From assembly GCA_002269645.1 (NCBI GenBank), contig NIVC01003752.1, positions 14,896 through 78,895 on the forward strand: a stretch of 64,000 nt of DNA. Direction: 5' to 3'. The DNA is from Macrostomum lignano. Taxonomy: Eukaryota. The translations under genes and the position numbers were made by a program. This document shows positions 325 through 62,250 of this stretch, in pieces. The notes beneath the pieces were generated by a model. It was not told where the DNA came from, did not search any database, and saw only the letters and a list, made by a program, of their open reading frames with translations. The first letter of the stretch is position 1. The number at the start of each line of letters is the position of its first letter.

Positions 325-440
325 TTGCTGTTCAGTCCAAGGACTGGGGGGGGGGGCGCCACACACACACAGCCCCAATTACCCCAGCTAATGCTGGCAC
401 CCATTTTACAGCTGGGCAAACTGAAGCACTGCATCTATAA
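325..440 (-). mobile_element. SINE fragment (CORE-like domain)
   Basis: ccagctaatgctggcacccattttacagctggg core shared with copies at about 4190, 23740 and 62140. Confidence 0.7.
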
Positions 441-4033: not shown

Positions 4034-4186
4034 CTGTGTTAAAAGTAAATGATTAAAATAGCTTTATTAACTGTTTATGCTGCTAACAGTAGCAATAAAT
4101 GGAAATTTGATCTAAAATCGTTTATTTATTTTTCACTTTAATTTAATTGTTTATGATAAGAATAAAAAGTAATTAGACTTGCAACA

Positions 4187-4435
4187 ATGGGCAGATATGC
4201 AACCGACAGCTCAGCCGCAGCTATTGCGCGGTGCACCTGAAGGCTGCGTACAGCTGTTCAGTCCAAGGACTGGGGGGTCGCCACACAGCCTCAATTACCC
4301 CAGCTAATGCTGGCACCCATTTTACAGCTGGGTGAACTGAAGCAATGCAGAGTTAAGTATCTTGCTCAAATACACAAATTGCTCCAGTTGGGATCGGGAA
4401 TCGAACCCCCAACCCCCAGACCAATGTAGTCCACT
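4187..4435 (-). mobile_element. tRNA/CORE-type SINE, near full length
   Basis: On the minus strand: B box GGTTCGATTCCC, CORE-like ttcacccagctgtaaaatgggtgccagc, and a tail shared with 23735-23962. Confidence 0.75.
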
Positions 4436-8036: not shown

Positions 8037-9155
8037 CTTCTTTGCTAGATTTGCTCGTTTTGCAAGTAGCATTCCTATGAGGCACTGACAAGCTAAAGAA
8101 GACAAGACAAAAATAATGTATGGCAATCTTCAAGTTTCATTCGTTAAATTATTTTTTCAATGATTTCTAAATTATCTTGCTCTGAGATGATTATTTTTGA
8201 GCTCTCCAGTGTACCCAGCCCTTTCCTAGCTAAGAAAGTAGCAGCTTTGTTAATATTAACCTCTAACGTACCATAAAGCCAGAAATATAAGATGCAAACA
8301 AGCAAAGCTAACATGTAACGCTGAGTACAAACAGACAGAAATAGTAACACAGTGGGGTACAACAGGGGCAGTAGTAGCAGTCCAGTTCAGAAGCAACAGT
8401 TTAGCATATAGAACTCAATGCTTAGACATTATAGTAATGTGCGATCTAGTAGATGAGGTCCAGTAGCTGACATAGCTTGAGGGCAATTCCACAAATGGGT
8501 CACCACTAGGACAAAAATAAAAAAATTGTTGAATAATGACAACTTTATGTTTATAATATAGTTAAACATGTATATTTTTGTCCTTTTTATTTTTTTTAAT
8601 CTGCTGCCTTTTTTCATTTGATTTTTTGCTCCCAATGTACATACCCTTCACCCGGACCTAAATATAATGCTTTTCTTATAACAAATAATTTCATTCCCTG
8701 GCTGTTTGGAATTTCATTGAGCCATACTTTTTTCTATACGTTAAGTGTGTCTTTTGCAGCTTATTGCAATCTTTCTTTTTAATGTAAAGTTCATAGGACA
8801 AGGAATATTGGACTTCAAAGTTTAAAAACTGTAGTACAGCTACGACCGTCACAAAAAAATCTAAAAAGATTTTCCTTGGCTTTCCTGTAAGACCTACTAT
8901 TGTAAAAATGCACAAAAAATTAGTCTTTCATGTGTACTTTTATTTGGTATAATTTGGTTCACATAAGTCTTAAGGGCTAGTAGAAAAAAGTCTGCAAAGT
9001 TAGCTACGACCATCACAGGAATTTTGTATCTAATGACACTCTATAGTATACCAGCTGGTATACTTTCATATCATCTTCTTTTACGAATTGAAATCAAGTT
9101 AAAGGCATTATTAAACTTCCAATGTACCATATATTCAGTTTTGCAGCAATTCACA

Positions 9156-19953: not shown

Positions 19954-20239
19954 CTAGACTCTTATATGTACACATTTTTGCACACATGTACATAGAATGC
20001 AGGCCTGGAAATTCCTAATATACGCATGTTTGGAAGAGACTCCTTGAGGCTGTACGCTACAGTTTAGATTCGAGGTAGAGAATGAGGCCTGACAATTCTC
20101 AGCAATTCGACAAGCAAGGTAAGTGAGGAATCGCAGTCCTGATTGGTTTTGATGACCAAGGGGAAGCATTTTAAATAAACACGCAAGGCAAAATTTACAA
20201 AATTTCCGGCTCATCATTCGCGTCCGCATTAAAGCACTC

Positions 20240-21442
20240 ATGGACCAAGCGACGACTCCGTCATCGGTAACCAGCGGCAGCTTTGGCCTTGACCGCTTTT
20301 TCCACAGACTGATGCTTTGCTTGCTAGGCCTTACCGGACTGGTCTCAATTGCTGGGAACAGTCTGCTGATGAAGGCCATTCTGGCTACTCGCAGAGAGCG
20401 CCGTAGTCAAATCGCTTCGTTGCTAATGAATTTTTGCGGCTGCGACTTAGCCATTGGTGCCCTGGTAGTTCCGATCACAGCCTACCCGTTTATTCAGTTC
20501 AACTGGAGTCTTGGCGAGCCAGCCTGCATGTTTGCCTGCTTTGGCAGCGTCTGGCTGATGTTCGCCTCTGTCTTTACCTTGACGGCCATCAGTATGCGAC
20601 GATGCCATGGCGTCGTGCGTGTAGCTCGAGGCGATGCAGCGGATGCTCAAGAGTCCGGCTTGCGAAGCTTGGCGCTCATCTGGATCCTGGCCGCTCTCTC
20701 AGCCCTGCCCAATGCCGTCAACTACCGCCTGGTGCCTTGCCAGGGCCTTGAAGCCAACGATTCAAATCTTAACGATAGTATCATCTTTTGCTGCGAGGAC
20801 AGCTGGAAACGCAGCCTGGAGTTGCTTGGTTTCGGCAACAACCCTCGTCCGGAAGTTGAGCTGGCAGCTCGAACTATTTATTCAATCTTTATCGTACTCG
20901 CAATGCTGCTGACACCGTTGAGCATCATTACAACAGCTTACCGACGCATCTGTCGTCAAGTGTCCAGTATTGGCCAGAATCTGCGCGCGCTTGATCAACC
21001 AAGGTGTCGCAACAATCGTCTTAGACAAGATCGGATCGCCCGGTCAAGACGAATTTTTCGACTGTCCGTTGTGCTGACCGGCCTGTTTGCTGTCTGCTGG
21101 GCGCCGGCTCATCTTTGGAATTTTGCAGCCGATCTCTGCCTCCTGGTGATGGTTCTTGGACCTGACCAGCAGCTGCTGCTGCAGCAGCAGTGGCACCTAT
21201 CGTTTGCCAAGGACGTTTATCTTGTGATCATGTGGCTAGCTCTGACCAATTCAGCTATTAATCCAGCTTTCCTATTCACCACCGACTCTACATATCGAGC
21301 TTGGCTACTGCGTCAGTTTCGTCGTAACCGCCGTAACCATGGTAACAATGACAGGCACGTCGTTAGTTTCAGCCTGGACCGGGACGCAGCTGGGACGCCA
21401 ATACGGCTGCAAGTACTGCGGCGGGCCACAGTGGTAGAATAG
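20240..21442 (+). CDS. Intronless rhodopsin-family (peptide-receptor-like) GPCR, 400 aa
   Basis: Seven hydrophobic segments; GN in TM1, D in TM2, W.LG..AC, CWAP in TM6, NSAINP in TM7. Confidence 0.88.
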   Translation: MDQATTPSSVTSGSFGLDRFFHRLMLCLLGLTGLVSIAGNSLLMKAILATRRERRSQIASLLMNFCGCDLAIGALVVPITAYPFIQFNWSLGEPACMFACFGSVWLMFASVFTLTAISMRRCHGVVRVARGDAADAQESGLRSLALIWILAALSALPNAVNYRLVPCQGLEANDSNLNDSIIFCCEDSWKRSLELLGFGNNPRPEVELAARTIYSIFIVLAMLLTPLSIITTAYRRICRQVSSIGQNLRALDQPRCRNNRLRQDRIARSRRIFRLSVVLTGLFAVCWAPAHLWNFAADLCLLVMVLGPDQQLLLQQQWHLSFAKDVYLVIMWLALTNSAINPAFLFTTDSTYRAWLLRQFRRNRRNHGNNDRHVVSFSLDRDAAGTPIRLQVLRRATVVE

Positions 21443-23734
21443 TTGGATTGTTTGAACTTTGGTAAAATACAATGACCATATCATCAATTGTGTTCACCCG
21501 ACGAACCCGAGAAACAAACACAAAGACAAATCAATAATGAAATTCTTGCAAAATTATGTACGTACTTTTGAGTGCATATAACTTTTTCTGTCCCATTATG
21601 CGAGCGCAATCTAGTTTGGTTGACCTATAAAATCACAATTTTATACCCTGTTGTTGCAGTTGCTTTGTCAAATTGTCAAATAAGTTTTTTTGCGGCTTAT
21701 TTACGACGTACAGTTCTAATATGACTTTTATATATTAATCTGCCCTCAAATGAAATCCTCTTAACCATGCGTCATGTTATATATAATCAAAATTTAATAT
21801 GTATAGATGTGTATTACTTATTTATATGTATAGCTAATTAAGTTTCTGGGCCAGCCTCCCAGATCCCCAGTTGTTGACGTGTAAATGCAATGTAGTGCTT
21901 GCTGTTATCACAGTGTCAGCTATGGCACCGTTCATACTGTTGCGAAACATAGTACGAGCCATAATCGCATGAGAGTGAGCTAGTATACTGATGCTACCAA
22001 CTTTTTGCAAATGTTGTCACTTGAAATGTGTCGAGAAAATATTAAAAAAAACTTTTGTGTTTAGTTTGTAACACTGAAGTCGGAAGTAGTCCGTATAGTG
22101 CGTTGTGATTAATCCAAAAACACAAATATATACGCTCGTACCAACAACATGATCTCCCTCGTGTTTTTATTTTGGTAATTGTTATGTGCAAATTTAACTC
22201 AGTCTCGTGCTCGATATTAATCTTGATATTCATATTTTTTAACATTCGAGATAATACGGTGTAGTTGGCCATGTGGATAAAGAAATTAATCCCGTGCAAA
22301 CGTTCTGACGTCCAAGCGAGTGCCAAAAGTACCCAACATCAATGGACGTCGCTGCCAAGTACAGCTAGTGTAGGTTTTTAACACTATATACACCGGTTGC
22401 GGTCGTTGTTTTATAGAAGCACTTACATATAGTAGCAATACTTGTAACTTTGCGAATGGATGGGGCTGTAGCTAGCAAGTAGAGGACGCATTTCAAATTG
22501 TCACCTTCTAGCATCTCCATATGGCGAATTTCGGTAAACCTGCATGAGAACAATATAATTAGCCTAAAAATTTCAAGTCACGAGCTCGCATTCACACTAA
22601 GTGAATGACGTTTAAGCATTCACGTGACTATGATCTAGTGCAAATTTCTGCTTCGAATCTGTTAGAAATACGTGTTAACGACTGATTTTGGCAAATATAC
22701 ATAAAATTTTAGTGACAGCTTGAGTCCTGAGCGCGTCAAGGTTAGTTCATGGACAATTGAAGTGGAACGCTACAGAAAGAATTTCTTAGAAATTTGACAC
22801 CGGTAAGAAACGTATTTATTTGTCGTATCGCCAGGTGCATGCATTTGGTACTCGTATGCTTTTGAGTAATCGGATTATACCAATACCATAGACATTCTTC
22901 GTTCAGAGAGAGGGAAATCCTCTGACCGCTTTGAGCCTCGGGATTCTTTCTCTTTCTGCCCTCAGAGGGTCTATGGTACGCGTATAGTCCATTCCCATCC
23001 GATTTGCATGAGGCGGGCAAAAAAGTCATTTCTCTGCCTTGGAGCCAATAGTCTATGGTCGAAGTTCAAATTCATTTACAGTTAAGGTGAGAGAGGCATC
23101 TTCTTTAGGATCGTGTTGCAATATTTCTCTGCGCTGTATGTTCGACGCAAGTTACCCCGCCTCTGCTCGGCATGAAATTCATACTTGATGGCACGATATC
23201 AGCAGCTTGTTTCTGGAAGAGATGAACTTTCTATCTTTGTTATACGCTCGTACTGACAAAGACAGACTATAGTAGTCCAATGGACTGGATTCGTTCCTAG
23301 CGTTGGATGCATGCAGATACGCCTTGGATCCAGAATCGGACAACTCCCTTGAAGATCTTGCCGATCTTGTGGCTGAACTATCGGCTGAACGGGAGTAATT
23401 CAGTCTCTTCCACCCTGCCGGTCCAATCGTGTCAGAAGCTACAGCAGGAGCCGTTGACAGGCGAGTCTCAACAGCTGGTCGGGCGTTAAAACCACTGTAC
23501 CTTCAACTTCTATTGACAAGTGCCAGACCAACTCCTCAAGAATTTATAGTTGGCTGAGTTCACGTGACGCAAGAAAGTCAGAAACATGTGCCTTTTTTAT
23601 ACACTTAAAACAACCAATATTATTCGAGTAGCTTGGTTTGTTGTTGTTGCTGCTGTCATTAAAGTCTAACAGCCGTTGTTAAAATAAACCTATTGTAATT
23701 ATGTAATAATAAACATTTATTACACCTGCCCCAG

Positions 23735-23962
23735 TTGGGCCATGCAGATGCGCAACTGACAGCTCAGCCGCAGCTATTGCGTGGCGCATCTGAAGGCTGC
23801 GTACGGCTGTTCAGTCCAAGGACTGGGGGGTCGGCACACACCCTCAATTACCCCAGCTGATGCTGGCACCCATTTTACAGCTGGGTGAGCTGAAGCAATG
23901 CAGAGTTAAGTGTCTTGCTCAAGGACACCAATTGTTCCAGTGGGATCAGGAATTGAATCCCC
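23735..23962 (-). mobile_element. tRNA/CORE-type SINE
   Basis: Highly similar to 4187-4435, including the gtgtccttgagcaagacacttaac linker and CORE-like block. Confidence 0.78.
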
Positions 23963-25832: not shown

Positions 25833-26928
25833 CTTCGAAAGCCCGTTTGTGGGACGTAGTACTATCATGGTTGTTATCATTTCTCATGCTTTAATCACGT
25901 CATCTTTCTGGCCAATTAGCAGCCCTAAGAGGAATTTGTGTATCTCCAGCTCCACCACCACAACCTCTGCAGCAGTCTAACAATTAGCTAACCAAGGAAA
26001 TACGCATTTCTTTAGGAGCCATTTAAATTTTAAAGAAACCCTATGCGAATCTTAGTGTTAAAATTTGTAATCAGTTATTCATTAATTTTTCGCTATTTTT
26101 GCAAACCATCCCACATCGCCTTGTTGATTTGCCATCCACTGTTAAACTGCTGCAGACTTGTCTATACAGAGGACAGTAGTTTGAATCTCTCACTAAACTG
26201 TCTCTCCTCTCCACGCCTCTCCACTCGTGGGGGTACAGAGAAGGCTATATTGAAAAGTTATTCCAAAACACTGTAATTCGCTATGCACATTGAGCCCTAT
26301 CGCCTGACCTTTCGTCTGGGCTGGGGGAAATGAGTGAGTGAGCGGCACAAACAACAGAAAAAGCAGACAAACTTCACATGCTTAAAGTTTCTGTTCTAAT
26401 TGATTTACAGAGTTGAGACTTTATATTTAGACAGTGAATACAGGCTGCAAGGCCGGGGCTGTTGCCCCCAGGACCCCGGGTCCTGCACGTAATGGCGTGG
26501 TGAACTATCTGTGCAGTATGAGACTGGTATGGCCTTTATCCCAGCCAGCGATGCTCACACCTGCCTCCCCTGGCGGGCTGATAGCTCAAGAGACTCTGTC
26601 TCCTGATTTTCACCTTGCAAGGCGCACTTCGAAGGGTACTCGTCCCGTGGGTGTTAAGGCAGGCCCCCTTTGGGCCCTGCCGAGCTGATTCGTTGGCGCC
26701 GGGTCCTGGTGTGACCATAAACGCACCCTCTAATGTCCCAGTGTAACTCCGTGCTGATGGACGCTTGGCCAGGGAGTAGTCTGGTCGCTAACGGTTCCCC
26801 TTGCGCTTTTGGGTCCCCCCGCAGGGTGGTATTTCGCTTTTTGGGGGCCTGCCGCTTGGTTTGGGGTTGCGGCCTTGCGGCTCTTTGCCTGTGTTCTACA
26901 GGAAGTCCCACCTTTTTACTTCCAGCCA

Positions 26929-28441
26929 ATGGCTTCTAACCGAAGTAACAATCCGGATGTGGATGACACAGTGCCTCCGGCCTCGGCTGGGGCCGTGGAC
27001 TCCTCGGCCATACCACCTGCTACCATCGGGGACGCCTCGGCGAGACCCGTGGAGCCAACTCTGAGCGGTGCCTCCGAGAAGACACCTGCTACTCCAGCTG
27101 CTAAGCAACGCAGCACCACCTCTGGAGCTGCCCGCCGTCGACTTAACAAGGCGAGGCGGGCCAAGGAGGGCGGAAGCCAAACCGGTGCCAGGGGCCAACG
27201 GCCCGCGGCAGCGGAAGCTTCCCAGTCTGGGGCGGTGGCGGAAGAGGGCCTCGAGCCCACGGAAGCCCCTGCCCAGGATAGGGAGGCCGATGCAGCCGGG
27301 AGGGTGGACAGCCCACCTGAAGAAAGCTCCACTGACCCCCGGGCCTCCTACGCTGATGCGGCAAAGAGGCAACCGGCGGTTGTCATCCTGGGAAAGGACG
27401 CGCGCCTGTCTCCCGATCAGCTGAAGCAGGTGAGAAGTGCCGTTGATGGCCTCCTGTGGAAGCTTACTCTGAAGGGCACGCCTCTGAACATTCATTCGAA
27501 TGCGACGAGGGACTCGTGCCTTCTCATTTGGCCCAGTGATGCTGACTCGGGTCGGCGGCTCCTTGAGCTGCTGCCCGAGCAGAGCTGGGACCTCAACCTA
27601 GCCTTCTGCAGAGAGGACGAGCGCCCCCGGACCAAGAGGCATCGAATCTGGGTCCCGGCCAGGAGCGTTGTTACCTCTGCTGACGAGCTCCGGAAAGGAC
27701 TGCTAGCAGTCAACCGAGAGCTTCCCGCCGCGGGCCTAGTGGTGCATGACACCCTTAAGCGCACCGACGGCACTGGCTTCACAGCCATCCTGGGGCTGTC
27801 GGACGCCTGGATGAGGCGTTATCCACACGGCAGCTTCATCAACGTCGGCCTTTGGAAGCTGCGCATCCGCTCCTACGAGGCCGACCCTCCCCGTGGCAGT
27901 GAGCAGGGATGCGGAGGCGGCCGGGGCCGAGGCGCAAGCCTCTGCTCAGGCTGCCAAACCAAACCGCCCTGCCCGGCAGCACGGCCGCGCGGGCAAAGCT
28001 GAGCGCGCTGCTGAGGGCGGAGGCGACCGACGCCCGGTGCGCAGCACCAAGCGGCGCGGCCTGTACCAGCGCGCAGCTGAGGCGGTCCGCACCGCTAAAA
28101 TCACCCAGCTGAGGCGAGAGGTCGCCGGGACGCCCAGGCGCACCAGTTCGTCCAGGGAGGGTGGGGACGTCCCAGCTGGGCCCAACCCCTTGGAGCAGGG
28201 CCGACTGGAGACGGACCCGCCTGCCCAGGCGGCTGGCTGCTCCAGGGCATTGGGCCAATCTGAGGCGGAGGACCCCATGGATGGTGGGCAAAGGGCGGCG
28301 AACGCTGCCTATTGCCTTCCGGCCAGTCGGGGGCCTTTCGCTGAAGAAGAGCCCATGGACACCGGCGACCCCGACCCGAAGCTGGTGAGCGCCGAGGAGG
28401 AGGAGGAACTCCTGGCGACTGCAACACCCGATCTGCACTGA
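26929..28441 (+). CDS. LINE ORF1 (DUF4780-like), one frameshift near 27890
   Basis: ATG 26929; ORFs 26809-28002 and 27893-28441 join by a 1-nt indel in a C run; RIWVP..LLAVN..GFTAILG..VGLWKL resembles LOA-clade ORF1; no CCHC knuckle. Confidence 0.7.
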
Positions 28442-31400
28442 TGCCAGCGGCTACCTGGTGTCTGCAGATTAACACCCAGCACTGCGTGGCGGCGTCGGTC
28501 AACCTGATGCGCACGGCAGAGCAACAGCTTCCGGGCCTGGTCTTCGTGCAGGAGCCCTGGATGACTAAAGGTAAGCCAAATAATGTGCCATCTGGCTACC
28601 ACTGTTTTTGCATGGCGGGCTCTCAGCCTCGCCCAAGATCTCTGAGCTTTTGAGGCATGGATGAGACCTGATCTCTCGTCTGGGGACATCTGTGTTGTTC
28701 AAATCAATAACCTCATTCCCAATAAACCTGTGCTGGTAGCATCTGCCTATTTCCCGGGCGATGCCCCAGTTGTCTGCGACGCGCTAGTCAACCTTATTGA
28801 CTATGCTGCGTCCCATCGGTTCGAGCTGCTCATTGCAGGGGATGTGAACGCACACCACCTGCATTGGGGCAGCAAGAACATCAATAGCAGAGGCGAGGAG
28901 CTGCTGGCCTATGTCAGCAGCACTAACCTCAATTTCTGTAACGTGGGCAATGCACCAACGTTCAATAATGGGCGGTGGGCCGAAGTCATCGACACCACCA
29001 TCGCCTCACCCGGACTGCTTTCCGCAGTTACGGGCTGGCGAGTGTGGGGACGAGGACTCACTCTCGGACCACCGCTTTATCCGCTTTTGCATTGGGCCGA
29101 CCAAGCAAAAGCCTAAGGTCACTTGGAGTCGGAACGTCAGAAACACCGATTGGGCCACCTTTGGCTCGAAGCTGAGCCGCGGCCTTCGGGATCTTGACCC
29201 CCCCAGTGACCTCTCTGACTGCCAGGTGGTGGATGATCTCGCCTCCTCCCTGAGTGGGGCGATCACCACTGCCTTCGAAGCAGCCTGCCCTCTAAAAGCC
29301 TATAAAGGCAAGAAATCTGCTCCCTGGTGGAACCCAGAGCTCGGGGCCCTTCGGCGCCGAGCCAGGACCCTCCAAAGGCGAGCGCTCAAAACCAAAGACC
29401 CATCTGACAGAGAGGCTTATACCCGTGCGATCCACGAGTTTAAGGGCCAAGTCAGAAGGGCCAAGACGGCCAAGTGGCGCCAATACTGCGAAGGGCTTGA
29501 GGGCTCTCGCCCCGTAGCCCGCGTGGTTAAGGCACTCACGAATGACCGTTTTTCTAAACTCTCTGTTGTGAAGAGACCTGACGGCTCGGTCACAGGGAGC
29601 TCTGAAGAGACTCTGGAGCTAATGCTCAACAGTTTCTTCCCTAAATCTCCGACTCAGCAGGGCCCGCCTGACCACACAGTGGGAGGGCAAGGCCTAGCAA
29701 AGTCTATAATCACCAAAGACCGCATTATTAGAGCGGCAAGGTCCTTTAACCCGTTCAAGGCGCCTGGGCCCGACGGCATCTACCCAGCGTTCTTGCACGA
29801 GGCGGCGAAAAACCACCGCTTTCTGGACCTCCTCTGTCGTCTCCTCCGAGCTTGTGTGGAACTGGGCTATGTACCAGTTGCGTGGAGAGAGGCCCGGGTG
29901 GTCTTTATCCCCAAGCCTGGAAAGAGCGATTACCAATCGGTGAAGGCCTTCAGGCCTATCAGCCTCACTTCTTTCTGCCTCAAGCTCCTCGAGAGACTGG
30001 TGCTCTGGCGCCTACTTTCAGTCGAGCTGAAGCGCTTCCCACTCTCGCAGAACCAGCACGCCTTCCGCGCGGGCAGGTCTACCGAGAGTGCCCTCCATGT
30101 CATTGTTGACTTCCTGGAGAGGGCCGTTCTTGGCAGCGGCTTTGCCCTCTCGCTTTTCTGGACATTGAGGGGGCCTTCGATAACGTCATCTTCGAGGCCT
30201 TTTGCAGAGCCCTGGAATCCAGGGCCACGCACCCTCACCTTGTCCGGTGGATCATGTTCATGATCCGGAACCGCACTGTTGTGGCCCACCTGAACGGCAG
30301 CTCTCTTTCGGCGCCTGTCCAAAAAGGGGGCCCCCAGGGCGGAGTTCTCACCCCCGTTCTCTGGAACATGGTCATGGATGAGCTGCTTTGCAGTGATCTT
30401 CACGACCCCATTCTCAAGGTGGGCTATGCCGATGACGTGACCGCGGTCTGCGCGGGCCCCTCGGTTGACACCATCAGAGATCTTCTGCAGGGCTTTCTGG
30501 GACGAGCGGAGCGTTGGGCAAACCAATGTGGCCTCAGACTCTCAGAGTCGAAAACCACAGCGGTCATGTTTACCAACAAACTGCTCTGGACCATTAAGCC
30601 CCTCACCCTCTATGGAAAGAACATTTCCATGGAGAAGCAGGTCCGCTGCCTGGGCCTCACTCTGGACCACAGGCTCAACTGGACTCCGCACATTCAAACT
30701 AAAGCCAAAAAAGCCCTGGCTGTCCTGGCTCAGATCAGGCGCGCCGTGGGCACCACCTGGGGGCTCACCCCAGGAAGCTGTGGTGGATTTACACTGCAAT
30801 CATCCGCCCCTCGATCAGTTACGCCAGCCTCGTGTGGGCTAGCGGTCCGGGCGTCAAGAGTAACCTCGACGCTCTCTACAAAATCCAGGGCAGAGCCTGC
30901 CGCATGACTATGGGCGCTCCACCCTCTACTCCTTTTGAAGGCATGAATGCCTTCCTCTGCACCCCTCCTCTGGATATTTATATCAAAGGAGAGGCGGCGA
31001 AGAGCACCCGGCGTCTTCTGGATGCTGGGGTGGCCTTCAAGAAAGTGCGGGCCTTTAAGAAGCGGTCGCTTATCCCGCACTCTGACCTCTGCCTCAAGGC
31101 TTTAGAAGAATGTGGCGGGCTCAACATCCTCACGGACTCGATCCCAGCCACCCTTCTCCTGAGCCAAAGGTATAAGGTCACTATTCAGCCTCGACATGAG
31201 GCGAGTGACAGCTGGAGCGATTCTGTAGTCCACTGTTACACTGACGGCTCTATGAAGCATGATCTTTCAGGCTTCGGAGCGTGCGTCTTCTTCAAGGGAG
31301 AAGTGGCGTGGAGCTACTCCCAGCACACTGGGCTCAACTCCAGTGTTTTTCTCAGAGCGAGGTGCTTGCCATCAGCTCCTGCGCGGCAGAACTGCGCCGA

Positions 31401-32129
31401 AGGCAGCTTAGCGGTCGGAAGCTTATTTTTCACTCTGACAGCCAAGCAGCCCTTCGGGCCCTCTGCCGCTGCACCACCAGCTCCAGGTCCGTCCTGGACT
31501 GCAACACCCAGCTCAACGGGCTTGCGCTAGGCAACCAGGTAGAGCTCAGATGGATCCCGGGCCACGCCGGTTTCCTCGGCAACGAGCGCGCCGACCTGCT
31601 GGCCAAGGCTGGCTCCGCCGGCGCGCTGCTGGGGCCGGGCCCGGGGGCCCCCATCCCCGCCTCGGTGATCAACTCCCGCGTAAAGCGTTGGACTGACTCC
31701 GAGCATCTCCGCAGGTGGCACGACACCCGGAATTGTAGGCAATCCCGGGCGGCCGTCCCCTGCCCCTCCCCTCTCCTGCGTAGAGCCCTCCTCAGGCTCA
31801 ACCGCAGAGACCTCAGAGCAGTTAGCATGGCCCTCTCCGGCCATGGCTGCTTCTCTCGCCACCGCTTCCTTCAGGGCCAAGTACTCGAGGAGCGGTGCCC
31901 CTTCTGCCGCTCAGGCAGTGAAAACGCCGAGCATTTTATCTGCCACTGCCCGGTTTTCACCAGGGCCAGGCTCACTCACCTCGGGCCAAACCCGGTTCTC
32001 TCCGACGTTTGCAGGCCCGAGAGCATCCCGCTGCTCGCCCGGTACCTTAGGGACACGGGACGAGTCGATTTCTTCCCCACTGTCGGTGAGGAGGACCGCG
32101 CTGCAGGCGAGACCGACGGGTCCCCCTGA
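28441..32129 (+). CDS. LINE ORF2: endonuclease, RT, RNase H, CCHC (about 5 frameshifts)
   Basis: QINTQH, VQEPW, GDVNAH, SDH; APGPDG, FRPISL, LDIEGAFD, PQGGVL, YADD; YTDGS, SDSQAAL, WIPGH..GNERAD; CPFC..ENAEHFICHC. Confidence 0.9.
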
Positions 32130-32399
32130 GCGACTTCACTTCAACGGAAGTCATTGGTCGCCTGGGGCTAGCGGAATGGGCGGTCTCCTCCGCCTCCCCG
32201 CTGCATCCGCCGGACGCCCCCTGCAGCTAAGTCAAGACAGGCTGCAAGTCAAAGAAGAATTGTGTCAAGTTTCAAGTCAATGGCCTCACGTGTAGGAAAC
32301 GTATGGCAGCCGAAAGTTAGTGAATTTTAAAACCCCCCGTTTACACATCAGGCCCAGTTCGGGAAAAAGAGGCAGGCGGAGGTTGGGGTGGCTTCCTCG

Positions 32400-40252: not shown

Positions 40253-40576
40253 ATGGACGTTGACAGCCCAGCCTCCGCCTCCGCGTCATCTGCCGCTGCC
40301 AGTCGCAAGCGCTTCGAAGTGAAAAAGTGGAACGCCGTAGCGTTGTGGGCCTGGGACATTCAAGTTGACACGTGCGCCATCTGCCGCAACCACATCATGG
40401 ACCTGTGCATCGAGTGCCAGGCCAACCAGGCCTCAGCTACCAGCGAAGAGTGCACAGTGGCCTGGGGCGTCTGCAATCACGCCTTCCATTTTCATTGCAT
40501 CTCGCGTTGGCTGAAAACTCGCCAAGTTTGCCCGCTGGACAATCGCGAGTGGGAGTTCCAGAAGTACGGGCACTAG
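40253..40576 (+). CDS. RBX1: RING-box protein 1 (cullin-RING E3 subunit), intronless
   Basis: [73 protein letters not shown]. Confidence 0.99.
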
Positions 40577-41602: not shown

Positions 41603-42529
41603 ATGACATTCACCGTAGTAGATCTCAAAGTGACGCTTCTGTCACTAATGGCAACGACAGTTCTAGCAGTCTGCTTAGGCCCAGTGTACGCACTGCACAG
41701 GATTCGCAACTCAGAATTGGCATCTAGATTTGCTCGCGGTCGCGTTGAAGAACGTCGCAGGCGTCGACTCCGCGAACTGTGGGTGTCGCGTATGTCGGTA
41801 TTCGCCGCTGGCGTGTTCGTGTCGGTCGGCCTGATGGACCTGTTCCCCGACGCCTACGGCGATCTCAGCGAAGCAGCTGACGTTTATCGTTGGCGAATGC
41901 GAAGGTTTCCGCTGTCTTATTTTTTAATGCTGTGCGGCTTCTTCATGGTGCTAGTGCTGGAGCAGGTTGTGCTCAGCTGCCGAGAGCGTCAGATGTTGAG
42001 CCAGTCGGGTCGGTCCCAGAAACGGAGAGATAAGCGAATGAAGGAAAGAGAACCTGCAGCTGTCAACAACTCGGTAGAAACCGACGCCTTGCTTGGCCAG
42101 CCAATCAGAACAGGCCGCGCTAATGTACCGGCCGCTCTGATTGGCTACGGCACTTCGCATATGATAGCTAATAGTAGTAGTCAATCAATTTCAGTTGCTA
42201 GGCGAGCCAGGTCTCTGTCGGACATCGCCGCGTCCTGGCGTCAGGCCGGGGAGTTCGACGAATTCCCATCGATTGTTGGCATCCGGGCTGAGCCTGTGCT
42301 GCCGCCGCCGCCCGCCCCCTGGAGTGCCGGGGCCGGGGCAGCGCGTCGATATGGCGGAGTCGATGATGACAATGATGACGTCATCATATCGACGAGTCAG
42401 GCCGAGGCGGCGGCAGCCGTGGCCGAGATTGAAGCCGCTCTGTCCGAGGAGGACACAGCGTCGAGTATGGCGCACGAGTGCGACCACCGAAGTCATAGGG
42501 ATCATAATAATTTTGTTAGCGGCAGTCAG
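41603..42529 (+). CDS. ZIP1/2/3-type (SLC39 subfamily II) zinc transporter, exon 1
   Basis: TM1-3 (FAAGVFVSVGLMDLFPD; FPLSYFLMLCGFFMVLVLEQ), long loop with HECDHRSH; phase-0 donor CAG|GTGAGA. Confidence 0.9.
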
Positions 42530-42539
42530 GTGAGATCAT

Positions 42540-42790
42540 ATTGCCTGTGTGTCAGTAGGGAATTTCTCAGATTGCCTGTGTGTCAGTGGGGAATTTCTCA
42601 GATTGCCTGTGTGTCAGTGGGGAATTTCTCAGACTACCTGTGTATCAGTGGGAAATTTTTCAGACTGCCTGTGTGTCAGGTAATTTCTCAGACTGCCTGT
42701 GTTAAAGGGGAATTTCTCAGACTGCCTGTGTTAAAGGGGAATTTCTCAGACTGCCTGTGTTAAAGGGGAATTTCTCACGTTGCCAAGACC
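42540..42790. repeat. About 31-bp minisatellite at the start of the ZIP intron
   Basis: ttgcctgtgtgtcagtggggaatttctcaga-like units, about 8 copies. Confidence 0.88.
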
Positions 42791-43240
42791 ACTAAAGTAG
42801 TAAATCGGCCCAGAAGCCAAAGCGACTCATGAGGGCGGCGGTTGATCGAGGTCCGAAAAATGGCTCAAAAGGCTCTAATAGAGTAAGGAGTCTTTCGGGT
42901 TTCCATCGCGTGTTGAAAATTTATGCTTTTTCACTGGCGTATTCTGTGAATCGCCATCATTTGTGAATTGGACTGTAAAGTAGCCAGCCTGAACGACTTT
43001 CAATATCTAGAAAGAAATCGCTTTTTAACACTTCAACTACTTTTACTTTGACCTGTGGAGCTTTGAATGTTGTAGCATTTTTGTCCTGTTACAAATGGGA
43101 ATTTGTGGCTGTGTTTTCAAAGTAAATACGAGTCTTCTCGTGTGTCAATGTGTTTTGAAATAATTAGTCTCAATCTGCCTTTAAATGAGTCTCACTGTGT
43201 CTCAAAATGAGTCTTAATCTGCCTTCAAATCAGTCTCAAT

Positions 43241-46200
43241 ACTACTATACGTGCAGTTTTCCGGGCGTTTTGGAGGTGGGGTGGGTGTCAACCCTCCTCG
43301 CCTCTCATTGGCTGGCGACCCGATCACTAGGTGATCGATACGCGTATCGATATCGGCGCTCGGCGCGCGCACAGTGAGACTCATTTCGAGACACAGTGAG
43401 ACTCATTTCGAGACACAGTGAGACTCATTTCGAGACACAGTGAGACTCATTTAGAGACACAGTGAGACTCATTTAGAGACACAGTGAGACTCATTTAGAG
43501 ACACAGTGAGAATCATTTCGAGACACAGTGAGACTCATTTAGAGACACAGTGAGACTCATTTAGAGACACAGTGAGACTCATTTAGAGACACAGTGAGAA
43601 TCATTTCGAGACACAGTGACACTCATTTAGAGACACAGTGAGACTCATTTAGAGACACAGTGAGAATCATTTCAAGACACAGTGAGACTCATTTTGAGAC
43701 ACAGTGAGAATCATTTTGAGACACAGTGAGAATCATTTTGAGACACAGTGAGACTCATTTTGAGACACAGTGAGAATCATTTCGAGACACAGTGAGAATC
43801 ATTTTGATGCATAGTGAGACTCATTTTGAGACACAGTGAGACTCATTTTGAGACACAGTGAGAATCATTTCGAGACACAGTGAGAATCATTTTGATGCAT
43901 AGTGAGACTCATTTTGATGCATAGTGAGACTCATTTCAAGACACAGTGAGACTCATTTCAAGACACAGTGAGACTCATATGAAGAAACATTGAGACTACT
44001 ATACGTGCAGTTTTCCGGGCGTTTTGGAGGTGGGGTGGGTGTCAACCCTCCTCGCCTCTCATTGGCTGGCGACCCGATCACTAGGTGATCGATACGCGTA
44101 TCGATATCGGCGCTCGGCGCGCGCGCGCCGCAGGCGCGTGGCGCCAAGCGCCGCAGGCGCACCCTCCCGATATGTACCCCGATATGTATGCCCTCCCTCC
44201 TGATATGTATGCCCTCCCGAGTCGCAGGCGCCCATGCAGCAGGCGCCCCCCCTCCCCGCCGCACGCGCCCTCCCCCGACATGTATGCCGCAGGCGCCCTC
44301 CCCGCCTCAGGCGCCCCTCCCGATATGTATGCGCACTCTCCCTATATGTACACCGATATGTATGCAGCAGGCGCCCCGAGTGTACACTCTCCCGATATGT
44401 GTGTACACCGATATGTAGTCATCGATACGGGCCTCTTCCCCTCTCTCACCTACATCTCAACTAGCGAAATCGAACCCAGGTCGCGCCCATACTAGGACAC
44501 TACACGGTTGTGGGGTATAGGGAGCGAGAAGTTTCAACCCTAACGCTGACGCAGCCCTGTACAGTGAGAGTGTACGGGCAGAGAGGGGTGGGGCGGACAG
44601 AGAACCAGCCACTAGGTTGTTATACTGTTGAAGCATAGGGAGCGAGAAGTTTTAACCCCGATGCTGACGCAGCCCTGTACACTGAGCGTGTACGGGCAGA
44701 GGGTGGGTGGAAAGAGATGTGAATAACACAGCCTGCTGCAGGAGCCGGATAGAGAGGCGCATGCTAGGACAGAGAGGTAGTGTGAGTCACACACACCCCA
44801 CAGAGAAAGCCATACAGAGGATAGAGAGCTCCCTCCCCAGTTGCAGGGGACAGAGAGGCAGGCAGGGTATGCAGGGGCATGCGAACCGTCAAGGGGCCAC
44901 GCGAGGATAGAGTGGAGGAGCAGAGATGTGTTTGGACAGAGAGCCAGCCACGTGTGCGTAGTGTGAGGGAACAGAAACATATGGAGCAGGAGGGAGATAG
45001 GAAGCAAACGCGCAGGGTAAGGGAGCCACACAGGACGGTACAGTGAGACACGGGCAGGGGTGGAGCCGTGCGTGGACAGAGCTGAACGGCACGGTCAGCT
45101 GCAGGAATAGGATGATAGAGAGGCGCGGAGGGGGACAGAGAGCAGTGTGCAGGGGTAGGCAGCCACGCAGGCTGGGGAACAGAGAGGCGCGTGTCAGCCA
45201 GTTGCAGCCCGGGACAGAGAAGTATGAAGGGGGGCCTGGGACAGAGTTCCGAGCAAGGCACAGAGGTAGGGTCTGTTCCGGACTGTTCTGTCCGGCATGT
45301 GGAAAAGTATTTGCCCCGCCTTCGCTTACTCATACTGCACACAGACAAAGCTTATCTCTATTAGCAATCTGTTCGTGGTGGTTTAGAAGGATACTGTCTT
45401 CCTGTATATAGCTCTCTATCCCTTCATCACTCGTAATAACTTCATAAATGCTCGCTTGACCAATGGCTGGTACTGAACTAATAATTCATACGATACATAA
45501 TGGTTAATACTTTCTAACTCCGTACAGCTCACAAGTTTCTACTCTCTACCTTATCAGTAACATTAAAATAAAAAGGTAAAATTTGCTGGTTTTGTGCCTT
45601 GTTTGCTTACTTTTCTATTAAAATACTTGCGGTTTATAATTGAAAATGTCTGCTTTTTATTCAATTTTATGTGGTTTGAAGGTTTATTTTTGCTAAAATG
45701 CCTGGTTTCTTATAAAAATTTCTACTCTCGACAATGATTGTGTCAGCTATTTCATTAAAATAACCTACTTTTGAATAAAACGTTGTATTTAAGCCCCTAG
45801 TTTTTTTTTCAAAACATAATGGAAACCCTCACAACGCCCTTGGAACCTCCTCAAGCAGCTTACATAGAGCATGCAGACCCCGAAACCCCCTCTAGTGTGC
45901 CCTGATTTCAGCGGTCTGACGGTTAAGATCTGTATTTTTACACTATATTTTCCTTCATGCAGCAATACAGGAGGGTTTGGTAGAGTGAGTCTGGCGGGAG
46001 AGGGGCTTGTGGGGTGATGAGGATGCGTACACACAGTTTAGCCTGTTTTAGTCTACCCTTTGGGCTAATATGCTTACTATTATTACTACTATTATACCTA
46101 CTATGTACATACTATTATACTACCCGCTATTAAACATGTTGCACTAAAACCAACTTTTGAAAATACATAGCGTGTTTTGGTCGATTCTCCCTCACGTCTC

Positions 46201-47720
46201 TGTCCCTACACATGTGCTCTGCTCGCTTTGGTCTCTGCTTGTGTACCTCTCTGTAACGTCTCTGTATGCTCTGACTGGTTTCTCCGTCCCCGCACGCGCC
46301 GCTACTAAAGTTTGCTGTTACCTACCCCTACACACTGCTCTCTGTCTCCCTCCGCGCACACCTCTCTGGCCTTGCATGCAACTTGCATGTCTGCTCCCCT
46401 GTCCTGCCCTCGCGTGGCTCCCTGCCTATACATAGCTACAGGACCCTACCTCTGTGCCTTGCTCGGAACTCTGTCCCAGGCCCCCCTTCATACTTCTCTG
46501 TCCCGGGCTGCAACTGGCTGACACGCGCCTCTCTGTTCCCCAGCCTGCGTGGCTGCCTACCCCTGCACACTGCTCTCTGTCCCCCTCCGCGCCTCTCTAT
46601 CATCCTATTCCTGCAGCTGACCGTGCCGTTCAGCTCTGTCCACGCACGGCTCCACCCCTGCCCGTGTCTCACTGTACCGTCCTGTGTGGCTCCCTTACCC
46701 TGCGCGTTTGCTTCCTATCTCCCTCCTGCTCCATATGTTTCTGTTCCCTCACACTACGCACACGTGGCTGGCTCTCTGTCCAAACACATCTCTGCTCCTC
46801 CACTCTATCCTCGCGTGGCCCCTTGACGGTTCGCATGCCCCTGCATACCCTGCCTGCCTCTCTGTCCCCTGCAACTGGGGAGGGAGCTCTCTATCCTCTG
46901 TATGGCTTTCTCTGTGGGGTGTGTGTGACTCACACTACCTCTCTGTCCTAGCATGCGCCTCTCTATCCGGCTCCTGCAGCAGGCTGTGTTATTCACATCT
47001 CTTTCCACCCACCCTCTGCCCGTACACGCTCAGTGTACAGGGCTGCGTCAGCATCGGGGTTAAAACTTCTCGCTCCCTATGCTTCAACAGTATAACAACC
47101 TAGTGGCTGGTTCTCTGTCCGCCCCACCCCTCTCTGCCCGTACACTCTCACTGTACAGGGCTGCGTCAGCGTTAGGGTTGAAACTTCTCGCTCCCTATAC
47201 CCCACAACCGTGTAGTGTCCTAGTATGGGCGCGACCTGGGTTCGATTTCGCTAGTTGAGATGTAGGTGAGAGAGGGGAAGAGGCCCGTATCGATGACTAC
47301 ATATCGGTGTACACACATATCGGGAGAGTGTACACTCGGGGCGCCTGCTGCATACATATCGGTGTACATATAGGGAGAGTGCGCATACATATCGGGAGGG
47401 GCGCCTGAGGCGGGGAGGGCGCCTGCGGCATACATGTCGGGGGAGGGCGCGTGCGGCGGGGAGGGGGGGCGCCTGCTGCATGGGCGCCTGCGACTCGGGA
47501 GGGCATACATATCAGGAGGGAGGGCATACATATCGGGGTACATATCGGGAGGGTGCGCCTGCGGCGCTTGGCGCCACGCGCCTGCGGCGCGCGCGCGCCG
47601 AGCGCCGATATCGATACGCGTATCGATCACCTAGTGATCGGGTCGCCAGCCAATGAGAGGCGAGGAGGGTTGACACCCACCCCACCTCCAAAACGCCCGG
47701 AAAACTGCACGTATAGTAGT
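43241..47720. mobile_element. Non-coding giant-TIR element (Polinton/Maverick-like hallmarks)
   Basis: Termini ACTACTATAC..GTATAGTAGT; 6-bp TSD CTCAAT (43235-40, 47721-26); arms 43995-45273 and 46442-47720 mirror exactly (coordinates sum to 91715; mirrored ORF translations identical); 1168-bp core. Confidence 0.8.
43371..43977 (-). repeat. 22-bp minisatellite, inverted copy of the 47738 array
   Basis: acacagtgagactcatttcgag units; order of variants mirrors the right array. Confidence 0.95.
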
Positions 47721-47737
47721 CTCAATGTTTCTTCATA

Positions 47738-48573
47738 TGAGTCTCACTGTGTCTTGAAATGAGTCTCACTGTGTCTTGAAATGAGTCTCACTGTGTCTTG
47801 AAATGAGTCTCACTATGCATCAAAATGAGTCTCACTATGCATCAAAATGATTCTCACTGTGTCTCGAAATGATTCTCACTGTGTCTCAAAATGAGTCTCA
47901 CTGTGTCTCAAAATGAGTCTCACTATGCATCAAAATGATTCTCACTGTGTCTCGAAATGATTCTCACTGTGTCTCAAAATGAGTCTCACTGTGTCTCAAA
48001 ATGATTCTCACTGTGTCTCAAAATGATTCTCACTGTGTCTCAAAATGAGTCTCACTGTGTCTTGAAATGATTCTCACTGTGTCTCTAAATGAGTCTCACT
48101 GTGTCTCTAAATGAGTGTCACTGTGTCTCGAAATGATTCTCACTGTGTCTCTAAATGAGTCTCACTGTGTCTCTAAATGAGTCTCACTGTGTCTCTAAAT
48201 GAGTCTCACTGTGTCTCGAAATGATTCTCACTGTGTCTCTAAATGAGTCTCACTGTGTCTCTAAATGAGTCTCACTGTGTCTCTAAATGAGTCTCACTGT
48301 GTCTCGAAATGAGTCTCACTGTGTCTCGAAATGAGTCTCACTGTGTCTCGAAATGAGTCTCACTGTGTCTCAAAATGAGTCTCACTGTGTCTCTAAATGA
48401 GTCTCACTGTGTCTCGAAATGAGTCTCACTGTGTCTCGAAATGAGTCTCACTGTGTCTCGAAATGAGTCTCACTGTGTCTCGAAATGAGTCTCACTGTGT
48501 CTCGAAATGAGTCTCACTGTGTCTCGAAATGAGTCTTACTGTGTCTCGAAATGAGTCTCACTGTGTCTCGAAA
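47738..48573 (+). repeat. 22-bp minisatellite, about 38 copies
   Basis: aaatgagtctcactgtgtctcg units; degenerate units continue left of the element at about 43160-43240. Confidence 0.95.
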
Positions 48574-48652
48574 TAGGTCGTGTCCTTAAACAACGAGTCT
48601 CAATATCTCCAAGACTGCTCATTATTCTACCTGTAATTATAACCGCTGACAG

Positions 48653-49114
48653 ATTCGCACGGTACTACTTGTGGCCGCAATGTCCGTGCACTCCCTATTC
48701 GAGGGTCTGTCACTCGGCCTCATACCAGCCGTAGGCAATGCGGCCAGTTTATTTGCTGCCATACTACTGCACAAGCTAGTAGTAGCATTCAGCATTGGAA
48801 TGCAGCTGAGCTCATCTGGCCTGTCAGTTTGTACAGTGATCGCCTGCGGCTGCGTGTTTGCTCTGATGAGCCCGGCTGGCTGTGGCCTGGGCATGCTGGT
48901 GATTGAGTTTGTCAATCACTCGGCTGCAAAGCTGGTTAGCGGCGTGCTTCAATCCATCACATCCGGCACGTTTCTCTATGTTGCATTCTTTGAAGTGTTG
49001 CCGCACGAGTTCAACACTGGCCGGGACCGGCAGGGCAAACTGCTGGCTCTGGTGCTGGGTTTTGCTGCCGTTTGCATCTACGTGTTTATCGACTCGCTGA
49101 AGGATGCCGACTAG
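48653..49114 (+). CDS. ZIP1/2/3-type zinc transporter, exon 2
   Basis: gctgacag|IRTVLL..SVHSLFEG (TM4), LLHK (TM5), GTFLYVAFFEVLPHE; stop at 49114. Confidence 0.93.
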   Translation: MRTVLLVAAMSVHSLFEGLSLGLIPAVGNAASLFAAILLHKLVVAFSIGMQLSSSGLSVCTVIACGCVFALMSPAGCGLGMLVIEFVNHSAAKLVSGVLQSITSGTFLYVAFFEVLPHEFNTGRDRQGKLLALVLGFAAVCIYVFIDSLKDAD

Positions 49115-52467: not shown

Positions 52468-53106
52468 CTCATATTCTTATCACCCCACCACCCCACATTC
52501 TTATCGCGCCACCACCCCACACTTTTATAAACCCACCACCCCACATTCTTATAACCCCACCACCCCACTTTCTTATAACCCCACCACCCCACTTTCTTAT
52601 CACCCCACCACCCCACTTTCTTATAACCCCACCACCCCACTTTCTTATCACCCCACCACCCCACATTCTTATAACCCCACCACCCCACATTCTAATAAAC
52701 CCACCACCCCACATTCTTATAACCCCACTATCCCAAATTCTTATAAACCCACCACCGCACATTCTTATCATCCCACCACCCCACATTCTTATAACCCCAC
52801 CATCCCACACTCTTATAAACCCACCACCCCACACTCTTATCGCCCCACCAACCCACATTCTTATCATCCTATCACCCCACATTCTTATAACCCCACCACC
52901 CCACATTCTAATAAACCCACCACCCCACATTCTTATAACCCCACTATCCCAAATTCTTATAAACCCACCACCGCACATTCTTATCATCCCACCACCCCAC
53001 ATTCTTATAACCCCACCATCCCACACTCTTATAAACCCACCACCCCACACTCTTATCGCCCCACCAACCCACGTTCTTATCATCCTATCACCCCACATTC
53101 TTATCG
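52468..53106. repeat. 24-bp C-rich minisatellite, array 1
   Basis: ccccaccaccccacattcttataa units. Confidence 0.95.
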
Positions 53107-53995: not shown

Positions 53996-54503
53996 GCACC
54001 CAGCATTCTTATCGCCCCACCACCCCACATTATTAACGCCCACCACCCCACATTCTTATCGCCCCACAACCCCACATTCTTATCGCCCCACCAACCCACA
54101 TTCTTATCGCCCCACCACCCCACATTCTTATCGCCCCACCAACCCACATTCTTATCGCCCCACCAACCCACATTCTTATCGCCCCACCACCCCACATTCT
54201 TATCGCCCCGCCACCCCACATTCTTATCGCCCACCACCCCACATTCTTATCACCCACCACCCCCACCACCCCACATTCTTATAACCCCACCACCCCACAT
54301 TCTTATCGCCCCACCACCCCACATTCTTATCACCCCACCACCCACATTCTTATCGCCCACCACCCACACTCTTATCGCCCCACCACCCCACACTCTTATC
54401 ACCCCACCACCCACATTCTTATCGCCCACCACCCCACACTCTTATAACCCCACCACCCCACATTCTTATCGCCCCACCACCCCACACTCTTATCGCCCAC
54501 CCC
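53996..54503. repeat. 24-bp C-rich minisatellite, array 2 (same family)
   Basis: ccccaccaccccacattcttatcg units. Confidence 0.95.
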
Positions 54504-62041: not shown

Positions 62042-62250
62042 CTGCAAAGAGAATCGAGTGTGCAGTAGACGTCTGTTGAGTTGATGTTTAACAGATTGGA
62101 GACAACCAAACTACTTGTACGAGCGTAGAAGGGCGCAACACACACCCTCAATTACCCTCAACTAATGCTGGCACCAGTTTTACAGCTGAGTGAACTGAAG
62201 CAACGCTAAATTCAACAGTTAAAAGCTAGCAAGCAATCGCTCGCATTTAC

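What the first reader, a model, noticed from the sequence alone, without database searches (positions are those of the whole stretch)
43241..47720. Giant palindromic element with about 1.28-kb TIRs, ACTACT termini and a 6-bp TSD in the ZIP intron
Seen: arms 43995-45273 and 46442-47720 mirror without indels around a 1168-bp core with no long ORF. TSD CTCAAT flanks 43241 and 47720. Removing the element and one TSD restores an in-register 22-bp minisatellite (aaatcagtctcaatgtttcttc-atatgagtctcactgtgtcttg), which fixes the boundaries. Known: a 6-bp TSD, very long TIRs and short terminal tandem repeats typify Polinton/Maverick elements, where terminal repeats support protein-primed slide-back initiation, but described termini are usually AG-. 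Inference: a young non-autonomous derivative of a possibly uncharacterised ACT-terminated Polinton-like family, about 69% TIR.
Basis: partly seen in the sequence, partly recalled or inferred. Interest (0 to 1): 0.82.

Follow-up and report, generated by a model that had tools for sequence, protein, structure and literature searches.

The report
Transposon rearranged into a DNA palindrome
A gene-less transposon in a flatworm zinc-transporter intron has copied its own right end plus neighbouring host DNA into its left end, so the giant palindrome is partly a repair scar; its end sequence may mark an undescribed type of Polinton, but that is unproven.

Summary
The coordinates are right, but the anatomy was misread. 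The host is Macrostomum lignano. Arms 43995-45273 and 46442-47720 match at 1279 of 1279 bases.

That stretch is a 130-bp end piece followed by an inverted copy of the host minisatellite lying right of the element. All 27 of 27 repeat units are in order once one unit is dropped. The mirror therefore runs 1904 bp into host DNA, most likely made after insertion by template-switch gap filling.

Consequences: arm identity cannot date the element, and the native TIR is only known to be at least 130 bp. The flanking repeat is 9 bp. All 21 boundary readings restore the same empty site, but only the 6-bp TSD gives symmetric ACTACT...AGTAGT ends.

A 6-bp TSD with A-initial repeated ends fits Polintons, and (ACT)2 is not among the three vertebrate motifs of PMC8097293. 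No gene, second copy or autonomous partner was found. Polinton origin is about 50%. An assembly artefact for the extra piece is about 15%.

The parts
41603..42529 (+). ZIP zinc transporter, coding exon 1 (host gene)
   Evidence: Pfam Zip E 1.1e-14; 41603-42499 is 100% identical to M. lignano BOX15_Mlig021309g2; exon end from tblastn and the GT donor at 42530
48650..49114 (+). ZIP coding exon 2; the intron is 42530-48649 (6120 bp, of which 4486 is insertion)
   Evidence: Pfam Zip E 2.7e-35
43162..43240 (+). Left part of the host 22-bp minisatellite (insertion target)
   Evidence: TRF 3.6 copies; in register with the right part after removal
43235..43240 (+). Left TSD CTCAAT (part of the 9-bp direct repeat AGTCTCAAT, 43232-43240)
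43241..43370 (+). Original left end of the element: 130 bp starting ACTACT, broken off inside a (GC)n palindrome
   Evidence: 130 of 130 identical to the other two ends; 16-bp perfect palindrome at arm positions 121-136
43371..43994 (-). Inverted copy of the right host flank (47721-48367): 22-bp minisatellite plus inverted TSD at 43989-43994, one unit shorter than its template; 1-nt microhomology at the joint 43370/43371
   Evidence: no substitutions, one 22-bp gap; 27 of 27 unit variants in order, best of 20,000 shuffles 15 mismatches; joint
43995..45273 (+). Left arm, 1279 bp: GC-rich tip with an 18-bp palindrome (44088-44105), a block of 7 GATATGT repeats, then 12 ACAGAG motifs
45274..45302 (+). 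Inner left joint with a 6-bp hairpin and a 6-bp direct repeat; possible repair scar (weak, post hoc)
   Evidence: both features occur in 46 of 2358 30-nt windows away from the joint
45274..46441 (.). Core, 1168 bp, non-coding; A+T-rich middle (27-38% GC at about 45395-45794)
46204..46426 (-). Extra diverged unit of the arm's inner repeat, present on the right side only
   Evidence: 156 of 196 aligned columns identical to 46444-46662; alignment score 113 against shuffles 75.7+/-7.6, max 100 of 200; the left equivalent scores 26 against 27.0+/-4.1
46442..47720 (-). Right arm, 1279 bp, ending AGTAGT
47721..47726 (+). Right TSD CTCAAT
47727..48574 (+). Right part of the host 22-bp minisatellite; the stretch up to 48367 is the template of the inverted copy

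Best explanation
Two events. (1) A DNA element with inverted ends 5'-ACTACT...AGTAGT-3' integrated into a 22-bp minisatellite in the ZIP intron and duplicated 6 bp. The insertion is shown. The 6-bp length is inferred from end symmetry (about 85%). A Polinton/Maverick source, with a retroviral-like integrase making the TSD and the (ACT)2 repeat serving jump-back priming, is inferred (about 50%). It encodes nothing, so any further movement would need a partner in trans. (2) Later the left end broke or stalled at position 130, inside a (GC)n palindrome. Repair synthesis switched template to the nearby right end and copied outward through the terminus, the TSD and about 640 bp of host flank, slipping one 22-bp unit. 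It then joined the 130-bp stub at a 1-nt microhomology. The copy is shown; the mechanism is inferred (gap filling or fold-back template switch). The switch onto the right end was either primed by native TIR homology, in which case 1279-bp arms are a family trait, or it was a second non-homologous joint at 45273/45274, in which case the whole 1904-bp arm is a patch that also replaced the interior. The window cannot separate these (about 50:50). The ZIP pre-mRNA would carry a 1.9-kb near-perfect stem (inferred, not tested).
For: The mirror extends past the terminus into host DNA with no substitution and one unit fewer. Unit-variant order matches 27 of 27; best shuffle 15 mismatches. All three element ends abut the same target hexamer, so no second integration site exists. 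The break lies in a 16-bp perfect palindrome with 1-nt microhomology. This matches the animal Pack-TIR gap-filling pattern of cis bias, internal breakpoints and microhomology of median 2 bp (PMC8277862, passages). The arm's inner repeat continues about 240 bp into the core on the right only, so 45273 looks like a cut, not a natural TIR edge. Only the 6-bp reading of 21 gives symmetric ends. A 6-bp TSD, TIR size and tandem A-initial end motifs fit Mavericks (PMC8097293; PMC8969392). TIR-only Polinton remnants occur in C. elegans (10.1101/2024.01.15.575659, passages).
Against: There is one copy only and no reads. No Polinton gene remnant was found in 12 frames by Pfam or in 6 core frames by PHROGs. 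(ACT)2 matches none of the three vertebrate motifs. It also differs from (AGT)2 at 2 of 6 positions, where Repbase allows 1 mismatch in 11 for superfamily assignment (PMC4455052). The 6-bp reading needs AGT to precede the target by coincidence (AGT frequency in the array 0.036). No paper or supplement I searched links Macrostomum to Polintons, and the polymerase search named no Macrostomum protein. The scar at 45274 is weak evidence (2.0% of other windows). An assembly origin of the 43370/43371 joint is not excluded.
Confidence: 0.6

Rival explanations
1. One reading: the inner 3726-bp unit with 1279-bp arms is the mobile family form, a non-autonomous derivative. Flank capture was a later, homology-primed accident at this locus. 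This is compatible with the best explanation and differs only on native TIR length.
For: Maverick TIRs reach 1447 bp. A long perfect inverted repeat is an efficient primer for a switch (general knowledge). There is no clean microhomology at 45273/45274.
Against: The arm stops inside a repeat array that continues on the right only. Arm and flank copy are contiguous and equally free of substitutions.
Confidence: 0.45
2. The element belongs to an unclassified cut-and-paste family with a 6-bp TSD, not to Polintons. The repeated ACAGAG and GATATGT motifs are transposase-binding arrays.
For: No Polinton gene trace. The end motif is unmatched. The arms are modular and repeat-rich.
Against: The 3-nt tandem end starting with A is a Maverick hallmark. 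From recall, not from a call, the other 6-bp groups (IS3EU with TAY..RTA ends, hAT6 with short TIRs, LTR elements with TG..CA) do not fit these ends.
Confidence: 0.3
3. The extra 754 bp is an assembly or read-chimera artefact, and the real allele is a plain 3726-bp element.
For: The published assembly that holds the identical ZIP protein was built with Canu from PacBio data and polished with Pilon, in a genome described as hard to assemble (PMC5730564, passages). Which assembly the window comes from was not established. None of 10 element ORFs, two of them spanning this joint, is in the protein collection; absence there says little.
Against: The ZIP exons are collinear across the site and the window has no N. 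The spacer is 1168 bp rather than adapter-sized, and 0 of 4 short adapter-like motifs (recalled) occur in 43200-47800. The joint falls in a hairpin-prone palindrome. The copy differs from its template by a whole unit.
Confidence: 0.15
4. A MULE/Foldback-like element with a 9-bp TSD (AGTCTCAAT) and ends that differ by 3 nt.
For: The 9-bp direct repeat is exact. Long modular arms with internal repeats and frequent rearrangement are Foldback-like (FB4 passages in PMC8277862; the 9-bp TSD of MULE/FB is recalled).
Against: It needs an extra ACT on the left tip that is by chance the exact complement of the first three TSD bases. The terminal match drops from 130 to 4 bp.
Confidence: 0.1
5. Alternative transposition (composite insertion, as for maize Ac/Ds) made the inverted duplication.
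For: It is known to yield inverted duplications of element ends (10.1101/2020.01.07.897926, passages).
Against: Composite insertions have a new target with its own TSD. Here all three ends touch the same CTCAAT site, and the novel joint is internal, at position 130.
Confidence: 0.04

Closest known systems
Polinton/Maverick elements (vertebrate survey PMC8097293; nematode survey 10.1101/2023.08.22.554363)
   Same: 6-bp TSD on the favoured reading; arm length within 46-1447 bp and 100-1500 bp; end made of a short tandem repeat starting with A.
   Different: The end is 5'-(ACT)2//(AGT)2-3', not (AGT)2//(ACT)2, (AG)3//(CT)3 or (AC)3A//T(GT)3. Size is 3.7-4.5 kb against 12.7-24.6 kb for intact elements. 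No genes.
Single-copy Pack-TIRs made by transposition-independent gap filling (PMC8277862)
   Same: Nearby host DNA is copied into a TIR element after insertion, at an internal breakpoint with minimal microhomology.
   Different: The filler is the element's own right end plus adjacent flank, inverted, so a third terminus and a 1.9-kb palindrome result. The cargo is minisatellite, not gene.
Mu killer and Ac killer inverted duplications (10.1101/2020.01.07.897926)
   Same: A kilobase inverted duplication of element ends lies under a host promoter and could make dsRNA.
   Different: Transcription of the stem, siRNAs and silencing were not tested here, and the origin is not alternative transposition.
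Foldback/MULE-type elements such as Drosophila FB4
   Same: Long, internally repetitive, rearrangement-prone arms.
   Different: A 9-bp TSD reading gives asymmetric ends; no transposase was seen.

Membership tests
Polinton/Maverick | 6-bp TSD | tested here: inconclusive
   Best reading is 6 bp (only symmetric one of 21), but the direct repeat is 9 bp and there is one copy
Polinton/Maverick | Long TIRs (about 46-1500 bp) | tested here: inconclusive
   1279-bp arms are present, but the independent left end is only 130 bp; still within the published range
Polinton/Maverick | Termini made of a short tandem repeat beginning with A | tested here: met
   ACTACT at all three ends
Polinton/Maverick | A described end motif ((AGT)2, (AG)3, (AC)3A), or Repbase rule of at most 1 mismatch in positions 1-11 | tested here: not met
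   Compared with the 6-7-nt motifs only: 2 mismatches in 6 to (AGT)2; Repbase/Dfam invertebrate ends not available
Polinton/Maverick | pPolB, retroviral-like integrase, ATPase, protease, capsid genes | tested here: not met
   No Pfam hit above cut-off in 12 frames, none in PHROGs in 6 core frames; expected for a deleted derivative
Polinton/Maverick | Autonomous copy with the same ends in the host genome | not testable with these tools
   No host genome on hand; protein probes gave nothing usable
MULE/Foldback | About 9-bp TSD with matching TIR tips (recalled) | tested here: not met
   The 9-bp reading leaves a terminal match of 4 bp
MULE/Foldback | MULE-type transposase in the element or a partner | not testable with these tools
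   None in the element; genome not searchable
Pack-TIR by gap filling | Host DNA from nearby, copied inside the element at internal breakpoints with short microhomology | tested here: met
Pack-TIR by gap filling | Unrearranged element or empty site at the orthologous or homeologous locus | not testable with these tools
   Two further ZIP copies exist as proteins (PAA84353.1, PAA54021.1) but their introns could not be fetched

The most novel reading that the evidence does not exclude
M. lignano carries a recently active Polinton lineage with a fourth end-motif type, (ACT)2//(AGT)2, which stands to (AGT)2 as (AC)3A stands to (AG)3. Its GC-palindromic ends provoke fold-back copying that captures flanking minisatellite into a still-mobile unit. 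At this locus that turned an intron into a 1.9-kb dsRNA hairpin able to silence the family.
Probability: 0.25. Interest if true: 0.65.

Novelty: new variant of a known kind. Interest (0 to 1): 0.4.

Why it matters
If the family is a Polinton, an ACT-type end widens the known rules for protein-primed initiation and integrase recognition. Screens seeded on AG/AGT ends (as in PMC8097293) could miss such elements. The locus is also a clean snapshot of how long inverted repeats copy themselves outward into host DNA. It warns that perfect kilobase 'TIRs' in a single copy may be repair products that say nothing about family structure or age. M. lignano is a transgenic model, so the hairpin's effect on ZIP splicing and small RNAs is testable. 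Without a second copy it remains one rearranged, unclassified insertion, hence a moderate score.

Tried and rejected
Other copies in the window: none. BLASTN of the element found only its own parts, and the terminal 11-mer matches exactly only at the three ends.

Coding capacity: 6 element ORFs gave one sub-threshold Pfam match (FYVE, E 0.069). Twelve read-through frames gave one (FeoB_C, E 0.14). Six core frames gave none in PHROGs. Rfam gave 0 matches at E 0.5. Plasmids gave no match.

Boundary-crossing ORFs as probes for other genomic copies: 0 of 216 candidates; 0 of 10 exact look-ups; one weak unnamed hit (P0011, E 1.9e-4, 47-residue stretch), treated as noise and not used.

phi29 polymerase against longer proteins, to see a Macrostomum pPolB: 5 of 6891 candidates, none named Macrostomum; weak test.

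Literature. Macrostomum with Maverick gave 2 papers, both off topic by listing. None of the 20 listed of 242 mentions Macrostomum. Supplements of PMC8502044 and PMC5730564 had no hits. ACTACT with Polinton gave 4 papers; I checked one, and it was a primer; the other three I saw as listings only. In the PMC8097293 supplement the first 13 of 712 ACTACT entries are all 3' motifs; my phrase test failed its own control, so the rest is unchecked. A review of termini and TSD lengths was not held, so IS3EU, hAT6 and MULE features are recalled.

Rejected: missed-adapter mirror and alternative transposition (see rivals).

Unchecked: the host genome, raw reads, Repbase/Dfam, and the viral and metagenome contig collections. 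The genome-contig scan was not used because it holds prokaryotes only. bioRxiv supplements were not seen.
Full report
Setting. The window has no N. The feature lies in the single intron (42530-48649) of a ZIP zinc-transporter gene. Exon 1 is 100% identical over 299 aa to Macrostomum lignano BOX15_Mlig021309g2. The same cluster holds two further Mlig gene models; the species is described as a hidden allotetraploid with a redundant assembly (PMC12801592, passages). Which assembly the window comes from was not established.

What is confirmed. Arms 43995-45273 and 46442-47720 are exact reverse complements at 1279 of 1279 positions around a 1168-bp core. CTCAAT precedes 43241 and follows 47720, and removing 4486 bp restores the 22-bp minisatellite register. 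The core encodes nothing recognisable: no Pfam family above cut-off in 12 read-through frames of core and arm, none in PHROGs for 6 core frames, no Rfam match.

What was missed. The stated element begins 754 bp left of the left arm. Those bases are a 130-bp copy of the end, identical to the other two ends, followed by 624 bp of minisatellite in inverted orientation that ends in the inverted TSD. Compared without gaps they show 41 mismatches to the right flank. With one 22-bp gap they show none. Coding units by variant, the right flank reads ABBCCDEFCDEFEEBGHIGHHJGHHJJJF and the inverted copy ABCCDEFCDEFEEBGHIGHHJGHHJJJ. That is 27 of 27 in order after one unit is dropped; the best of 20,000 shuffles had 15 mismatches, with the deletion tried at every third position. 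So this is a templated copy of this flank, and the mirror spans 43370-45273 against 46442-48367. The 69% TIR figure applies to the inner 3726 bp; for 4480 bp it is 57%.

Boundaries. The flanking direct repeat is 9 bp, AGTCTCAAT, because the element's last three bases equal the three bases before the left hexamer. All 21 readings with a TSD of at least 4 bp remove the same 4486 bp. Only the 6-bp reading gives matching ends (130 bp, against at most 5 bp). It needs one coincidence (AGT frequency in the array 0.036). The 9-bp reading needs asymmetric tips and a complementary extra ACT. I put 6 bp at about 85% (inference).

Mechanism. All three ends touch the same target hexamer, so there was one integration. 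The new joint is internal, at position 130, inside a 16-bp (GC)n palindrome, with 1 nt of microhomology. That points to repair, not to a transposase. A strand running outward through the left arm, or a broken end there, switched to the right end, copied through terminus, TSD and about 640 bp of flank, and was joined to the stub. This is the transposition-independent gap-filling route described for single-copy Pack-TIRs in animals, with cis bias, internal breakpoints and median 2-bp microhomology (PMC8277862, passages). Composite insertion by alternative transposition predicts a new target with its own TSD (10.1101/2020.01.07.897926, passages) and does not fit.

Native TIR length is open. The arm's inner ACAGAG motif occurs 12 times in each arm and 4 more times in the right end of the core, but not in that orientation in the left end. 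The right extension aligns to the arm above all 200 shuffles (113 against 75.7+/-7.6); the left does not (26 against 27.0+/-4.1). It is a diverged unit, 156 of 196 columns identical. So the mirror ends inside an array that continues on one side only. Just inside the joint lie a 6-bp hairpin and a 6-bp direct repeat, like snap-back and loop-out scars (PMC5728401, passages). The same pair occurs in 46 of 2358 other windows, so this is weak. Either an earlier deletion made a non-autonomous family with 1279-bp arms, or one repair event replaced the interior with a 1904-bp patch. Only the 130-bp stub is an independent left end; 0 of 130 mismatches bounds divergence at 2.3%.

Family. Vertebrate Mavericks have 6-bp TSDs, TIRs of 46-1447 bp and three end motifs, (AGT)2, (AG)3 and (AC)3A, tied to jump-back priming (PMC8097293, passages). 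Nematode Polintons are given 5-8-bp TSDs and 100-1500-bp TIRs (10.1101/2023.08.22.554363, passages). (ACT)2 would be a natural fourth type, but it differs from (AGT)2 at 2 of 6 positions, beyond Repbase's rule of one mismatch in 11 (PMC4455052, passages). I found no description of ACT ends, nor a Macrostomum Polinton. These searches cover open-access text only, not Repbase or Dfam, and in the one table of motifs I saw 13 of 712 ACTACT entries, all at the 3' end. Protein probes for other copies or a partner gave nothing usable. The element therefore has Polinton-like ends, but it is not filed as a member; probability about 50%.

Artefact risk. The published assembly with the identical protein used Canu on PacBio data with Pilon polishing (PMC5730564, passages). 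The insertion itself is hard to fake, given the TSD and restored register. The extra 754 bp could be a chimera (about 15%). Against that stand collinear exons, a 1168-bp spacer, no adapter-like motif (0 of 4 recalled motifs) and a one-unit difference from the template.

Verdict. A real, unclassified, probably Polinton-derived gene-less insertion, secondarily turned into a larger palindrome by a known kind of repair. The possible new end motif is the part worth following. Interest 0.4; new variant of a known kind.

Noticed in passing
window 15720-18080, minus strand: hAT-type transposase remnant (DUF4371 E 8.5e-21 and Dimer_Tnp_hAT E 4e-06, in different frames), next to a 27-bp minisatellite at 18139-18380.
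   Followed up: partly
window about 26900-32130, plus strand: GC-rich non-LTR retrotransposon with endonuclease (E 8.5e-15) and reverse transcriptase (E 2.1e-05) domains in different frames within 28441-30200; outer limits judged by eye.
   Followed up: partly
window 8122-8279 and 11083-11241: Inverted pair, 159 bp at 92%: probably a second, older 3.1-kb TIR element, unrelated to the one studied.
   Followed up: no
window 13711-13762 and 14972-15025: Short inverted pair, 54 bp at 87%, possibly the ends of a 1.3-kb element.
   Followed up: no
window 327-433, 4146-4410, 23692-23962, 62131-62206: Four copies of a short interspersed repeat, 82-90% alike.
   Followed up: no
window 40253-40576, plus strand: Intronless RBX1/ROC1 RING gene (zf-rbx1 E 2.9e-25) about 1 kb upstream of ZIP.
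   Followed up: no
window 20237-21442, plus strand: Intronless rhodopsin-family GPCR ORF (7tm_1 E 1.2e-31).
   Followed up: no
window 44088-44105 (also 43334-43351, 47610-47627): Perfect 18-bp palindrome in the element's end, 94-111 bp from the tip; a possible protein-binding site or origin element, unexplained.
   Followed up: no
window 44517-44591 and 44635-44710: 76-bp direct repeat (89%) inside each arm, between the two motif blocks.
   Followed up: no
whole window: Very dense minisatellites with periods of 18-48 bp, 48 TRF rows in all; the 24-bp arrays at 52473-53104 and 53999-54498 are related to each other.
   Followed up: no
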